Part shown: piece after piece, positions 1-2,393 of the stretch | Numbering within the stretch: position 1 is the first letter of the stretch | Layout: each line of letters opens with the position of its first letter | DNA from: Naegleria gruberi | Taxonomy: Eukaryota | NCBI GenBank assembly: GCA_000004985.1 | Contig: GG739265.1 | Length of the DNA: 2,393 nt | Reading direction: 5' to 3' (one strand) | Made by a program: the position numbers and the translations under genes | The notes under the pieces: model-generated | Databases searched by the model: none | What the model saw: only the letters and a program-made list of their open reading frames with translations | Told to the model about the DNA's origin: nothing

Positions 1-565
1 ATCTACATTATTGTTAATAATTAAATTGTTATAAGGTGCAAAAAACTGTAGATCAGTTCAAACTCAAAAGGTTCTCTCCTATATCTAAATCAACCTTTCC
101 CAATTATAGTCAATTCAGATGCTTCTCCTCAAGGATATGGCGTCCACTCCTCAAACACTGTTGTTATAGGAAGATCTCACACCAACGATCATATCGATTC
201 GAAAGAAATGATGGCAATTCTTCAATTCTTCAGAAGCAAGATCACAAAAGCTCTATCTTGAAATAGGAAGGGCCAATTCAACTGCCCTCTCATACATAAG
301 AAAAAGATATGGAACTTTCGAACCTCGCTCAAATAGCAAGGAAAATTTGGAAATAGAATGTGGCTTGAGAATTGCAAAAGTAATCTACATTCCCTCAGAG
401 AAAAATTACAGACAAACTGAGCGGTTTAAGTGATTAGAAATCATCACCAGAATTGATAAGTATGGTAGAAAAAGAATTCAGAACCACATCATCGACAGAT
501 TTGCAATATCAGAGTCAGCAATAAATAAACCAATGTTAGATATTAGTTGTTCCATTTATTTTTAA
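1..565 (+). mobile_element. Older, decayed DIRS-like retrotransposon fragment: RNase H remnant plus a possible trace of the start of the recombinase region. Oriented convergently to the minus-strand copy.
   Basis: RNase H homology 85..433 as above. After the TGA at 431 the same frame continues as 'LEIITRIDKYGRKRIQNHIIDRFAISESAINKPMLDISCSIYF*'. This weakly resembles 'ELINLVEDR' at the minus copy's RH end and 'AYRRTIHGIIQQIRES' at its YR-frame start. Upstream 1..84 has stops in all frames. Base composition changes abruptly to about 80% A+T after about 565. Confidence 0.45.
85..433 (+). pseudogene. Degenerate second copy of the retrotransposon RNase H domain. It carries a frameshift, a nonsense codon and substitutions at catalytic residues.
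   Basis: Hand translation of the plus-strand frame with codons at 100,103,... gives 'LNQPFPIIVNSDASPQGYGVHSSNTVVIGRSHTNDHIDSKEMMAILQFFRSKITKALS*' (stop 259..261). This aligns with the minus copy 'AVIINSDTTLSGFAIHSSNLVIVGQF...SSINVKELKAIYQFFKKASQQKL'. After a +1 shift near 232-236 the next frame gives 'ARSQKLYLEIGRANSTALSYIRKRYGTFEPRSNSKENLEIECGLRIAKVIYIPSEKNYRQTERFK*' (TGA 431..433). This aligns with 'ASQQKLFPPGTHFEIRGDNQPSLVYVRKGYGSIEHLSSIARDLWTILKLKDWHISKTVYIPSEVNNIADRLSRL'. By eye, identity is about 45-55% over about 110 aa. The catalytic D of 'IRGDNQ' is A ('IGRANS') and the D of 'ADRLSR' is E ('QTERFK'). Confidence 0.7.
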
Positions 566-984
566 ACTTATCACTACATCAACCTCCATGAATCTAGTTG
601 TCTATTTCTTGTTGTAAGAGTTTTTCTTTGTTTTAATAAACAACTATCAAACTCTACTTTTACTACTTCTAATAACAGTGTTTTTGTAATATTTTTACAA
701 AGTTTGTTCTTTCTTTGAATTCATTTTCTTTGGATTTACCATAAAGATTATTACTTCCAATCAATAATCTTCATAATGATAACACCAACTTTAGCAGATT
801 TTTAAAAATTAATCGTTTTTTATATTTTATATTACTTTGTTAAGCTTTTCTAAATTTCAAATCGATAAAATTTTTGAAAATTTATTTGTTACATTGCAAA
901 TTAATAAAAACAAGATTGAGAACAAGTAATTATACTAATGGGTATTAAAGCTCAGAGACTGTTTCACCTTTAAGGTGATTCAGC

Positions 985-1032
985 CTTGAGACCTGCTTTA
1001 ATGGATATAAATCTTTATTAGCAGGTCCCGAG
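985..1032. repeat. Imperfect inverted repeat (stem-loop): 13-nt arms 985..997 and 1020..1032 with a perfect 8-bp core gacctgct/agcaggtc (990..997 / 1020..1027) and a 22-nt AT-rich loop.
   Basis: Read directly. The reverse complement of 990..997 'gacctgct' is 'agcaggtc', found at 1020..1027. The outer extension ccttga/ctcggg pairs with one mismatch and one T:G. It lies in a locally GC-richer island (940..1035) inside the AT-rich spacer. A second small palindrome 'tcacctt-t-aaggtga' lies at 964..978. Confidence 0.6.
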
Positions 1033-1144
1033 ATTAATAAATATGGCTCTTATAAAAAAACTTATCAATAGTATTAGTAAAGATAAGAAAAAAATTAGGA
1101 GATGCGAGTAGGAGGCATAAACTAAAATGAAATTAAAATAAAAA

Positions 1145-1165
1145 AGATATCATTTGATGATATCT
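1145..1165. repeat. Perfect palindrome agatatcat-ttg-atgatatct (9-bp arms, 3-nt spacer, contains two GATATC sites). It sits 23 nt past the stop of the truncated recombinase ORF. On the minus strand it is followed by the T-rich run ttttttattttaatttcatttt.
   Basis: Read directly. The reverse complement of 1145..1153 equals 1157..1165. Low GC content (2 of 9 pairs). Confidence 0.6.
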
Positions 1166-1187
1166 GAAACCTCACTTCAACGAACAC

Positions 1188-1817
1188 TTACCAAGAATCA
1201 TTGAGAGCGTAAAAAAGGTTGAATAAGGTCATAGGACAGTATTTCTTTTCACCACAGTAAGGTTCGATTGGGGTTGGATTGTCAATCATGAAAAAATCAG
1301 TTTTGTGGTCTGATAGATCAAATGTAAACCAATTTTTCTTTGGATCATTTGGTTTCACAGAAGACCAAGAGAGATCGCAAAGATCACCAGGTCTTACTAG
1401 AAGTCTGAAACCAATAACCAGTACAGCAGTGGTTAAATTATAGGTATATTCATCATGTGATGAAATCGAATCAATATATGATTTAATATCATAAGAGGAG
1501 AAACCATTACGTTTGAGTTTAGAACGATCCACAATATAGTAGGCTTTAGTAAGACCTTTCTTAACTCTTGAAAAACTACTATCTACATTGAGTTGCCAAC
1601 CTTCCACGTCTGCAAAGAATTGAATGGCTGGTTTCAATGTATTAATATCATAACTTTTCTTATTAATAGAAAGGTATGCAGCAAAACATTCGAGTGCATA
1701 TGGGTTTGTCTTTGGAATATTCTGAATTACCAGGAACCATTGAAAAGCACCATAAAGTTTAGAATATTTCTTAATTGTGGAATCAGTAAGGGAGATTGAC
1801 AGGCCAAAATTTCTCAT
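1188..1817 (-). CDS. DIRS/Ngaro-type tyrosine recombinase, C-terminally truncated. It has the N-terminal core-binding/SAM-like domain and the first part of the catalytic domain only. It lacks the HxxR box and the catalytic Tyr, so it is likely non-functional.
   Basis: ATG at 1817..1815 and stop at TAA 1190..1188. The frame is also open upstream to 1967 (stop TAG at 1968..1970 on the minus strand), giving a 20-nt overlap with the end of the RNase H ORF. N-terminal segment 'STIKKYSKLYGAFQWF...ALECFAAYLSINKKSYDINTLKPAIQFF' fits the YR core-binding domain pattern (ST...Y...W..F ... FL..L ... S.STI....A). 'VIGFRLLVRPGDLCDL' fits box I with the conserved Arg. 'FDLSDHKTDFF' fits the beta-hairpin Lys region. 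'KKYCPMTLFNLFYAL' fits the ..CPV..L..YL segment that normally precedes the HxxR box. No HxxR or Tyr follows. All three minus-strand frames below 1188 are stop-rich and AT-rich. Confidence 0.68.
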   Translation of the reverse strand: MRNFGLSISLTDSTIKKYSKLYGAFQWFLVIQNIPKTNPYALECFAAYLSINKKSYDINTLKPAIQFFADVEGWQLNVDSSFSRVKKGLTKAYYIVDRSKLKRNGFSSYDIKSYIDSISSHDEYTYNLTTAVLVIGFRLLVRPGDLCDLSWSSVKPNDPKKNWFTFDLSDHKTDFFMIDNPTPIEPYCGEKKYCPMTLFNLFYALNDSW

Positions 1818-1944
1818 TGATAATAAAGTTGACCGTTCACTTGAGCTACCAGAAAGGTGTGATTCTCGAATTTGTTGAATAATTCCGTGGATGGTTCTAC
1901 GATAAGCAGTTTTCTTGGAACACTTTGAATTTTTACGGATATCT

Positions 1945-2393
1945 TTAACAGAATTGGGTACGGTCTTCTACCAAATTTATCAATTCTTGAGAAGATTTCC
2001 TATCTCCCAGTCTGCTTAGTCTGTCGGCAATGTTGTTTACTTCTGATGGAATGTACACTGTTTTGGAAATGTGCCAATCTTTCAACTTGAGAATGGTCCA
2101 CAAGTCTCTTGCTATTGATGAGAGGTGTTCTATTGAACCATAGCCTTTTCTTACATAAACTAAGGATGGTTGATTGTCTCCTCGGATCTCAAAGTGAGTT
2201 CCTGGAGGAAACAACTTCTGTTGGCTTGCTTTTTTGAAGAATTGATAGATTGCTTTCAATTCTTTCACGTTTATAGAGGATTCTTCTTGGAATTGACCCA
2301 CAATGACAAGATTTGATGAATGGATGGCGAATCCTGAGAGAGTTGTGTCTGAATTGATTATTACTGCTTTGGGAGATTCCAGTTCTAACCACG
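1945..2393 (-). CDS. Retrotransposon Pol fragment: RNase H domain (partial CDS; the N-terminus with reverse transcriptase lies beyond the window edge). The 'M' at 2301 in the ORF track is a GTG inside an open frame, not a real start.
   Basis: Hand translation of the minus strand shows the ORF2 frame stays open from 2391 down to the TAA at 1945..1947. The translation begins ...WLELESPKAVIINSDTTLSGFAIHSSNLVIVGQFQEESSINVKELKAIYQFF... The track's ...IRGDNQPSLVYVRKGYGSIEHL...DWHISKTVYIPSEVNNIADRLSRLGDRK... supplies the canonical RNase H landmarks. These are D in 'SDTT..G.GA' (motif DAS..G.GA), E in 'VKELKAI', D in 'IRGDNQ', and D in the C-terminal 'N..ADRLSR'. That last motif is typical of DIRS, Ty3/gypsy and BEL RNase H. 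Codon 2299..2301 is cac on the plus strand, i.e. GTG, so it is an alternative-start artefact of the ORF caller. Confidence 0.8.
   Translation of the reverse strand, partial: WLELESPKAVIINSDTTLSGFAIHSSNLVIVGQFQEESSINVKELKAIYQFFKKASQQKLFPPGTHFEIRGDNQPSLVYVRKGYGSIEHLSSIARDLWTILKLKDWHISKTVYIPSEVNNIADRLSRLGDRKSSQELINLVEDRTQFC

What the first reader, a model, noticed from the sequence alone, without database searches (positions are those of the whole stretch)
1188..2393. Tyrosine-recombinase (DIRS-order) retrotransposon fragment with RNase H running directly into the recombinase and no methyltransferase domain
The minus strand encodes a catalytically complete RNase H domain (DEDD present, C-terminal YIPSEVNNIADRLSR). 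It is immediately followed by a tyrosine recombinase ORF with SAM-like N-terminal domain and box I 'LVRPGDL'. The RT-RH-YR order with a tyrosine recombinase in place of an integrase defines DIRS-order elements. The absence of any methyltransferase domain between RH (ends 1948) and YR (frame opens 1967) points to the Ngaro/PAT-like branch rather than DIRS1 itself. This family assignment is inference from motif layout, not from a database hit.
Basis: partly seen in the sequence, partly recalled or inferred. Interest (0 to 1): 0.6.

Follow-up and report, generated by a model that had tools for sequence, protein, structure and literature searches.

The report
Dead DIRS1-like retrotransposon fragment in Naegleria
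This is a broken, internally deleted copy of an already-reported kind of tyrosine-recombinase retrotransposon (DIRS1-like) in the amoeba Naegleria gruberi. The "missing methyltransferase" that made it look unusual is a 225-base deletion private to this copy, so the finding is ordinary.

Summary
The minus strand carries a retroelement RNase H (2391..1948, all four catalytic residues kept), followed by a tyrosine-recombinase (YR) reading frame (1967..1188). The window is a whole 2393-nt Naegleria gruberi scaffold, and its 209-aa ORF is the annotated protein XP_002668155.1.

- **Family layout.** Intact relatives (L001, L003, L004, L005, N. fowleri L008) and a 99%-identical sibling (L009) are gag / pol (RT–RNase H–Dam-like methyltransferase) / YR. 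The YR frame overlaps pol.
- **The "missing" methyltransferase.** The window copy has lost 225 nt (junction at 1962-1963). That stretch encodes the Dam-like segment, and its loss frameshifts pol. RNase H abutting YR is therefore a private deletion, not an Ngaro-type architecture. PAT elements also carry the methyltransferase domain.
- **Incomplete recombinase.** YR homology stops at 1233. The HxxR, Trp and Tyr catalytic residues are missing.
- **Second fragment.** An older, frameshifted RNase H fragment lies inverted at 52-526, beyond a 700-nt AT-rich spacer.

DIRS1-like elements riddled with frameshifts and indels were reported in N. gruberi in 2011. Verdict: a dead relic of a known family, low interest.

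The parts
1964..2393 (-). Pol fragment of copy A. It holds the retroelement RNase H domain (equivalent to L001 pol residues 403-545) and runs off the scaffold end at 2393. Catalytic D15/E44/D72/D123 are retained. The last ~12 codons (SSQELINLVE) are the start of the Dam-like segment.
   Evidence: tblastn gives 69% identity to L001 pol 403-545. It is 98.8% nt identical to L009 2180-2609. Alignment A2 shows the conserved residues. The PDB profile hits are CaMV and Ty3 RT-RH.
1962..1963 (-). Deletion junction. Two filler bases (CC on the minus strand) replace 225 nt that are present in relatives (L003 1429-1653, L001 2444-2668). The net loss of 223 nt frameshifts pol and removes most of the Dam-like methyltransferase-like segment.
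   Evidence: blastn breakpoints, junction sequences and protein alignment A3. The Pfam Dam matches in relatives cover the deleted residues.
1814..1961 (-). C-terminal tail of pol (YPILLKISVK...QVNGQLYYQ*), now in a different frame from the RNase H because of the deletion. Its TGA stop (1816-1814) overlaps the ATG (1817-1815) of the annotated YR ORF.
   Evidence: tblastn gives 83% identity to L001 pol 621-668. The same ATGA overlap is seen in L001, L003 and L004.
1233..1817 (-). Tyrosine-recombinase ORF, residues 1-195 only: the N-terminal domain plus the first half of the catalytic domain. The box I Arg is at 1394-1392 and the beta-hairpin Lys at 1304-1302. The YR frame is also open upstream to 1967, the deletion junction.
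   Evidence: It is 77% identical to L001 YR 1-195 and 98.7% nt identical to L009. Homologues P0001 and P0003 reach Pfam's threshold for PF00589.
1188..1232 (-). Unrelated read-through tail (MTLFNLFYALNDSW plus stop) after the 3' truncation point of the recombinase gene. The HxxR, Trp and Tyr motifs of homologues have no counterpart anywhere in the window.
   Evidence: Alignment A1, the breakpoint sequences, and tblastn of the full 302-aa YR, which finds only residues 1-195.
527..1232 (.). AT-rich (20-29% GC) non-coding spacer between the two element fragments. Its origin is unknown. It contains a ~100-nt stretch (940-1040) with above-chance folding and a 9-bp palindrome (1146-1166).
   Evidence: Composition. 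No blastn or tblastn match to any fetched locus. No Rfam or tRNA hit. Fold z-score -4.1.
52..526 (+). Copy B: a second, older fragment of a related element, in inverted orientation. It covers RNase H plus the first ~18 residues of the Dam-like segment (...IDRFAISESAIN). It is spread over three frames with in-frame stops, and two catalytic Asp are lost (GRANS for RGDNS; QTERFK for ADRLSR).
   Evidence: tblastn HSPs fall in frames +1, +2 and +3. blastn identity to L001/L002/L004 is mostly 66-69%. Inverted repeats I1-I3 pair it with 1966-2266.

Best explanation
The window is a complete 2393-nt unplaced scaffold of Naegleria gruberi that holds two dead fragments of DIRS1-like tyrosine-recombinase retrotransposons, arranged tail to tail.

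Copy A (2393..1233, minus strand) is a young copy, about 99% identical to a sibling. Its family has the layout gag / pol (RT - RNase H - catalytically degenerate Dam/PCIF1-like methyltransferase-like domain) / YR. The pol stop overlaps the YR ATG, and the YR reading frame stays open across most of pol.

Intact family members would work as DIRS elements do. This step is inferred from Dictyostelium DIRS-1, not shown here. The element is transcribed, RT/RNase H copies it into extrachromosomal cDNA, and the tyrosine recombinase inserts that cDNA by site-specific recombination, without an integrase.

Copy A cannot do any of this, for four reasons:
- The scaffold end cuts it inside pol.
- A private 225-nt deletion removed the methyltransferase-like segment and frameshifted pol.
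- The recombinase gene is truncated after codon 195, so HxxR, Trp and the Tyr nucleophile are gone.
- Point mutations have put two stops into the overlapping YR frame and changed conserved residues.

The annotated 209-aa 'predicted protein' is therefore a pseudogene remnant. Copy B (52-526, plus strand) is an older, frameshifted RNase H remnant of a related family.
For: Provenance: the 209-aa ORF is exactly XP_002668155.1 / NAEGRDRAFT_76934, on a contig of length 2393.

Family architecture:
- L001 has gag 44-958, pol 810-2816 with RVT_1, RVT_3 and Dam matches, and YR 2813-3721.
- L003, L004 and L005 have the same layout.
- The N. fowleri genomic copy L008 has Dam at 43.1 bits against a 28.1 cutoff, and P0015 has 31.2 bits.
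- Roughly half of the 120 listed pol homologues carry precomputed PF05869.

Deletion:
- Window 1964-2391 matches L003 1428-1001, and window 1233-1961 matches L003 2382-1654. The same 225-nt gap appears against L001.
- The junction reads GGTAGAAGA-CC-GTACCC.
- Sibling L009 has 10 mismatches in 1143 nt. It keeps the segment EFGHHTVDRFARSESAV...KAKGT and carries a different ~43-nt deletion, so the window's deletion is private.

Truncation: homologues continue ...YCPSFILKRY...GHSLRIGAATELA...AGNW...KRY, whereas the window diverges after YCP at 1233. The Cre box II match lies in the missing part.

Decay:
- All 5 substitutions against L009 in the YR part are non-synonymous, and at four of the five positions the window departs from the family consensus.
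- There are two stops in the overlapping frame that L009 lacks.

Literature: N. gruberi has 7 DIRS1-like sequences in 6 families, with 'too many frameshifts or indels' (PMC3266345).
Against: - No terminal repeats are present in the window or in the closest relatives, so the Dirs1-like versus PAT-like choice rests on the literature (TBLASTX in PMC3266345) and on weak indications from more distant relatives.
- In the closest relatives the Pfam Dam match is below the gathering score (14.6-26 bits). It exceeds the cutoff only in N. fowleri L008 and in P0015.
- A profile of the region found nothing in the PDB.
- L009 comes from a metagenome, so its organism is inferred from 99% identity.
- I could not search the N. 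gruberi genome itself, so I cannot exclude that other copies share the same deletion.
Confidence: 0.9

Rival explanations
1. One reading: a naturally methyltransferase-less, Ngaro (or 'Ngaro/PAT-like') element in which RNase H runs directly into the recombinase.
For: In this copy only 18 nt separate the RNase H-frame stop from the opening of the YR frame, and no MT-like sequence is present.
Against: - The 99%-identical sibling L009 and all intact relatives carry about 75 extra codons at exactly this point, and these match Pfam Dam.
- The pol tail continues in a shifted frame after the junction, which is what a deletion would leave.
- The pol homologues are MT-bearing, with PF05869 throughout.
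- PAT elements have MT; only Ngaro and VIPER lack it.
Confidence: 0.03
2. The deletion derivative is a non-autonomous sub-family that spreads in trans using proteins from intact copies. DIRS-1 proteins are known to act in trans.
For: The copy is young, at 99% identity to a sibling. The section headings of PMC7192593 state that DIRS-1 reverse transcriptase and proteins act in trans.
Against: - The only close sibling available (L009) does not share the deletion.
- The junction 22-mer has no match in JGI metagenome contigs.
- The copy is also 3'-truncated inside YR, so it lacks the 3' end, and in DIRS-1 the ICR there is essential for retrotransposition (PMC7192593 abstract).
Confidence: 0.04
3. 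The 209-aa ORF (NAEGRDRAFT_76934) is an exapted host gene that keeps the recombinase's N-terminal DNA-binding domain. This would parallel the origin of ALOG domains from DIRS1-type recombinases.
For: The ORF is intact from ATG to stop and is annotated as a protein. The ALOG precedent is described in PMC3537659.
Against: - All 5 differences from the sibling are non-synonymous. At four of the five positions the window departs from the family consensus, for example A to V next to the box I Arg and G to D before the hairpin Lys.
- The ORF ends in 14 unrelated read-through codons.
- At 99% identity to transposon copies there has been no time for domestication, and no expression data are available.
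Confidence: 0.02

Closest known systems
DIRS1-like retrotransposons (DIRS order; type element Dictyostelium discoideum DIRS-1), as already reported in Naegleria gruberi (Piednoel et al. 2011, PMC3266345)
   Same: - The family has gag, then pol with RT, a Ty3-like RNase H and a Dam/PCIF1-like methyltransferase-like domain, and a tyrosine recombinase instead of an integrase.
- The YR and pol reading frames overlap extensively.
- The N. gruberi copies are degenerate, with frameshifts and indels, as the 2011 survey described.
   Different: - This copy lacks RT (scaffold end), the MT-like segment (225-nt deletion) and the catalytic half of YR.
- ITRs and ICR, which define Dirs1-like as opposed to PAT, are not in the window. 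Among relatives they are seen only as a weak ~32-nt inverted repeat around the N. fowleri copy.
[quoted passage not shown]
   Same: They have the same domain set, including the MT domain.
   Different: - They are defined by split direct repeats (A1-B1...A2-B2), which cannot be assessed here.
- The 4097-nt circular assembly of the more distant relative L005 would be compatible with such repeats, but equally with circles or tandem copies.
- The 2011 survey assigned the N. gruberi elements to DIRS1-like rather than PAT.
Ngaro elements
   Same: They are tyrosine-recombinase retrotransposons with the order RT-RH then YR. The window copy superficially has the Ngaro layout.
   Different: - Ngaro elements naturally lack the MT domain and usually lack ORF overlaps.
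- This family has both. The MT-less state here is a private deletion.

Membership tests
DIRS order (tyrosine-recombinase retrotransposons) | Retroelement RT/RNase H pol together with a tyrosine recombinase (no DDE integrase) on the same strand | tested here: met
   In the window, RH lies at 2391..1964 and YR at 1817..1233, both on the minus strand. In relatives, RVT_1 pol is followed by a PF00589 ORF. The RH profile hits CaMV/Ty3 RT-RH, not cellular RNase HI.
DIRS group (Dirs1-like + PAT) | Methyltransferase-like (Dam/PCIF1-type) domain after RNase H | tested here: met
   The feature is met for the family. PF05869 matches directly after RH in L001, L003, L004, L005, L009, L008 (43.1 bits, above the 28.1 cutoff) and P0015 (31.2 bits). 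It is absent from the window copy only because of the 225-nt deletion. Copy B still keeps its start, IDRFAISESAIN.
Dirs1-like | Extensive overlap of the YR and pol reading frames | tested here: met
   The YR-frame ORFs are 905, 793, 907 and 927 aa long and span pol in L001, L003, L004 and L005. In the window this frame has two stops and is shifted by the deletion.
Dirs1-like | Inverted terminal repeats plus an internal complementary region | tested here: inconclusive
   No termini are present in the window, which is a whole scaffold, or in L001, L003 or L009. The N. fowleri copy L008 is flanked by a ~32-nt imperfect inverted repeat, scoring 38 against shuffles of 20.6 +/- 2.7, maximum 30. No ICR was identified.
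PAT-like | Split direct repeats (A1-B1 ... A2-B2) | tested here: inconclusive
   No direct terminal repeats were found around L008. L005 assembles as a 4097-nt circle, which is compatible with split repeats but not specific to them.
Ngaro | No MT domain as the native state; ORFs usually not overlapping | tested here: not met
   The family carries the MT-like domain and overlapping ORFs.
Active tyrosine recombinase (Phage_integrase PF00589 catalytic set R-K-H-R-H/W-Y) | All catalytic residues present | tested here: not met
   The window keeps only the box I Arg (1394-1392) and the hairpin Lys (1304-1302). GHSxRIG, the AGNW Trp and the KRY Tyr of homologues lie beyond the truncation at 1233. Pfam gives no PF00589 hit to the window ORF.
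Retroelement RNase H (Ty3/caulimovirus-like) | DEDD catalytic residues and the N-x-x-A-D-x-L-S-R motif | tested here: met
   D15, E44, D72 and D123 are present in the window. Of their alignment columns, E44 and D123 are invariant, D72 is at least 90% conserved and D15 is at least 70% conserved across 19 sequences.
Tyrosine recombinase N-terminal SAM-like/core-binding domain (PF02899) | Detectable similarity or fold of the N-terminal helical domain | tested here: inconclusive
   No Pfam hit in the window ORF or in P0001/P0003. AlphaFold pLDDT was 38.8. hhalign against a DIRS protein that has PF02899 (P0139) gave probability 1%.

The most novel reading that the evidence does not exclude
The residual 209-aa ORF is annotated as NAEGRDRAFT_76934. 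It keeps the recombinase N-terminal DNA-binding domain, the box I Arg and the hairpin Lys. It might be expressed and on the way to exaptation as a DNA-binding protein, as proposed for the ALOG domains derived from DIRS1-type recombinases. Alternatively, the tail-to-tail pair of DIRS fragments on an unplaced scaffold might mark a DIRS-rich, centromere-like repeat region like that of Dictyostelium.
Probability: 0.04. Interest if true: 0.4.

Novelty: already known. Interest (0 to 1): 0.12.

Why it matters
It matters little biologically. DIRS1-like elements in N. gruberi, including their degenerate state, were described in 2011. The practical points are these:
- A protein model in the N. gruberi annotation (XP_002668155.1) is a truncated transposon pseudogene.
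- Domain-absence arguments drawn from a single degenerate copy are unsafe for classifying tyrosine-recombinase retrotransposons. One 225-nt deletion made a DIRS1-like element look like an Ngaro.
- The 99% identity between two independently damaged copies suggests the family was active recently, so an intact master copy may exist in a complete assembly.

Tried and rejected
- **Pfam on the two window products:** no relevant hit.
- **Word-indexed protein search with the RNase H fragment:** nothing. The exhaustive HMMER search was needed instead.
- **Intron hypothesis.** The YR ORF ends at TGG|TAAGTG, a good 5' splice-site look-alike. I rejected it because homologues are continuous ORFs, and tblastn of the full 302-aa YR finds only residues 1-195 in the window, so no downstream exon is present.
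- **Extending the contig beyond 2393:** impossible, because the window is the whole scaffold. The exact-product look-up in the contig index found nothing.
- **AlphaFold model of P0001 from a 6-sequence alignment:** pLDDT 38.8, unusable, so no fold search was run.
- **hhalign of the YR alignment against P0139,** a DIRS protein with PF02899: probability 1%.
- **PDB profile search with the RH-tail/MT-like/pol-tail alignment:** only noise.
- **JGI metagenome scans** for the deletion junction and for YR relatives: empty.
- **Rfam and tRNA scans of the window:** only sub-threshold chance matches and no tRNA. The hammerhead-like CUGA...GAAAC string in the spacer lacks the essential core G8/A9 (my reading) and has no Rfam hit.
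- **Spacer 527-1232:** no blastn or tblastn similarity to any fetched locus or to gag/pol/YR proteins.

Full report
**What is in the sequence**

The window is AT-rich, at 20-40% GC. On the minus strand one frame is open from the scaffold edge (2391) to a stop at 1947-1945. It reads WLELESPKAVIINSD...VKELKAI...EIRGDNQPS...YIPSEVNNIADRLSRLGDRKSSQELINLVEDRTQFC*. A second frame opens at 1967 and runs to the stop at 1190-1188, and it contains LVRPGDL. Pfam, however, gives no relevant hit to either product.

**Provenance**

The 209-aa ORF 1817..1191 is exactly the Naegleria gruberi protein XP_002668155.1 / EFC35411.1 (NAEGRDRAFT_76934, 'predicted protein'). It lies on a contig of length 2393. The window is thus an entire small scaffold and cannot be extended.

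**The recombinase**

The 259-aa frame finds five homologues at E 1e-119 to 3e-62. Three carry PF00589 and one is another N. gruberi protein. On re-scanning, P0001 and P0003 pass Pfam's Phage_integrase threshold.

The homologues continue after '...EKKYCP' with SFILKRY...SGHSLRIGAATELA...AGNW...KRY, which are the HxxR, Trp and Tyr motifs. A profile of the family aligns this stretch to Cre box II. The window diverges right after YCP, at position 1233, into 14 unrelated codons and a stop. tblastn with a full 302-aa homologue finds only residues 1-195 anywhere in the window. The ORF end resembles a 5' splice site, but there is no downstream exon and the homologues are uninterrupted.

The window therefore keeps the box I Arg (1394-1392) and the hairpin Lys (1304-1302) but not the catalytic C-terminal half.

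**The RNase H**

A word-indexed search found nothing. An exhaustive HMMER search found 43 proteins, the best at 1.9e-72. In most of the longer hits scanned, the matched stretch lies downstream of an RVT_1 domain.

In a 19-sequence alignment the window retains D15, E44, D72 and D123 and the N-x-x-A-D-x-L-S-R motif. The profile hits the caulimovirus 'enzymatic polyprotein' (8r0s, 3.5e-12) and Ty3 RT/RNase H (7q5b 4e-6, 4ol8 7e-6), well ahead of cellular RNase HI at 0.005 or worse. This is a retroelement RNase H.

**Family architecture from related loci**

| Locus | Source | Layout |
|---|---|---|
| L001 | Logan, 3759 nt | gag-like ORF; 668-aa pol with RVT_1, a sub-threshold RVT_3 (RNase H) match and a Dam (PF05869) match at residues 533-594; 302-aa YR whose ATG overlaps the pol stop (ATGA) |
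| L003, L004, L005 | ENA, ENA, Logan | Same layout |
| L008 | N. fowleri genome | Dam match at 43.1 bits, above the 28.1 cutoff |

A more distant homologue, P0015, has a Dam match at 31.2 bits. Roughly half of the 120 listed pol homologues carry precomputed PF05869.

In L001, L003, L004 and L005 the YR frame stays open across about 600 codons of pol, giving ORFs of 905, 793, 907 and 927 aa. This is the pol/YR overlap described for DIRS1-like elements (PMC3266345).

**Why RNase H abuts the recombinase here**

- blastn aligns window 2391..1964 to L003 1001-1428 and window 1961..1233 to L003 1654-2382. The same gap appears against L001 (2444-2668).
- That is 225 nt replaced by two bases, a net loss of 223 nt and hence a frameshift. 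The junction reads GGTAGAAGA-CC-GTACCCAATTC.
- The lost codons (EFGHHT[V/I]DRFARSESA...NYCVPPLGLI...KAKGTFVVPDWPTSHW) are the Dam-like segment.
- After the junction the pol tail continues in the third frame (YPILLKISVK...LYYQ*, 1960..1817) and ends in the ATGA overlap.
- 'RH ends at 1948' is the frameshifted read-through, and 'YR frame opens at 1967' is the junction itself.

**The deletion is private**

L009 (ENA metagenome, 4239 nt) differs from the window by only 10 mismatches in 1143 aligned nt. It retains the Dam-like segment and has a different deletion of about 43 nt, which removes bases the window still has. It also has a 4-nt deletion and a different 3' truncation. The two are independently damaged copies of a recently active family.

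In the YR part all 5 substitutions are non-synonymous, and at four of the five positions the window departs from the family consensus. The window also has two stops in the overlapping YR frame that L009 lacks. This is the pattern expected of neutral decay.

**Surroundings**

On the plus strand, 52-526 holds a second RNase H fragment plus the first residues of the Dam-like segment. It is spread over three frames with stops, and two catalytic Asp are lost. Its nt identity to relatives is mostly 66-69%. It is inverted relative to copy A.

Between the two fragments lies a 700-nt AT-rich spacer. It has no similarity to any fetched locus and no Rfam or tRNA hit. One 100-nt stretch in it folds better than shuffled sequence, with z = -4.1.

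**Comparison with known families**

The literature defines the DIRS group (Dirs1-like plus PAT) by the MT domain. Ngaro and VIPER lack it and usually lack ORF overlaps. Dirs1-like and PAT differ in their termini: ITR plus ICR in the former, split direct repeats in the latter (PMC3266345, PMC4157794). The DIRS1 MT domain is regarded as catalytically inactive (PMC4738411, PMC3537659). The VPPL motif standing in place of (D/N)PPY in the Naegleria sequences fits that view; this last point is my own reading.

Piednoel et al. found 7 DIRS1-like sequences in 6 families in N. gruberi. These had 'too many frameshifts or indels' for phylogeny, and were confirmed as DIRS1-like rather than PAT by TBLASTX.

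Termini cannot be tested in the window. Among relatives there are only two indications:
- The N. fowleri copy is flanked by a ~32-nt imperfect inverted repeat, scoring 38 against shuffles with a maximum of 30.
- L005 assembles as a 4097-nt circle.

**Mechanism**

Intact members would presumably replicate like DIRS-1. Transcription is followed by RT/RNase H-made extrachromosomal cDNA, which the ICR helps complete, and the tyrosine recombinase then inserts it (PMC7192593 abstract). This is inferred by homology and is not shown here. The window copy lacks RT, the MT-like segment, the pol frame continuity and the recombinase active site, so it is inert.

**Verdict**

The DIRS-order assignment is right. 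The MT-less 'Ngaro/PAT-like' reading is wrong. The object is a dead fragment of a family already reported in this species.

Noticed in passing
window 52-526 (+): A second, older and frameshifted RNase H / MT-start fragment of a related DIRS-like element lies inverted (tail to tail) relative to the reported one.
   Followed up: yes
window 940-1040 and 1146-1166: Inside the AT-rich spacer, a ~100-nt stretch folds into a multi-hairpin structure better than all 200 shuffles (-15.9 kcal/mol, z = -4.1). Nearby is a perfect 9-bp palindrome, AGATATCAT-TTG-ATGATATCT. Neither has an Rfam or tRNA match, and their identity is unknown.
   Followed up: partly
window 1188-1817 (-): The N. gruberi annotation carries this truncated transposon ORF as a protein-coding gene (XP_002668155.1, NAEGRDRAFT_76934). 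A second N. gruberi entry (XP_002668087.1, P0005) is another partial copy that does keep the HxxR/W/Y half.
   Followed up: yes
L001 1004-3721; L003 325-2706; L004 1258-3981; L005 1067-3850: In four relatives whose pol proteins are 49-73% identical, the recombinase reading frame stays open for about 600 codons on top of pol. That is far longer than chance allows in AT-rich DNA. It matches the DIRS1-type pol/YR overlap, but the function of the overlapping N-terminal extension is unknown.
   Followed up: partly
L005 1-30 and 4098-4127; L006: The L005 contig ends repeat 30 nt exactly, and L006 is a circular permutation of it. This relative therefore assembles as a 4097-nt circle (gag-pol-YR with only ~137 nt non-coding). 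That is compatible with extrachromosomal circles, tandem copies or split direct repeats.
   Followed up: partly
L008 6440-6475 and 10635-10669 (N. fowleri VFQX01000017.1): The N. fowleri genomic copy (~4.2 kb, frameshifted) is bracketed by a ~32-nt imperfect inverted repeat (score 38 against shuffles 20.6 +/- 2.7, maximum 30). This is a candidate short ITR. No direct terminal repeats were found.
   Followed up: partly
L009 3720-4239: The 99%-identical sibling copy is also 3'-truncated inside the recombinase gene, at a different position. It abuts an unrelated minus-strand ORF that runs off the contig. Two young copies have thus both lost their 3' ends.
   Followed up: partly
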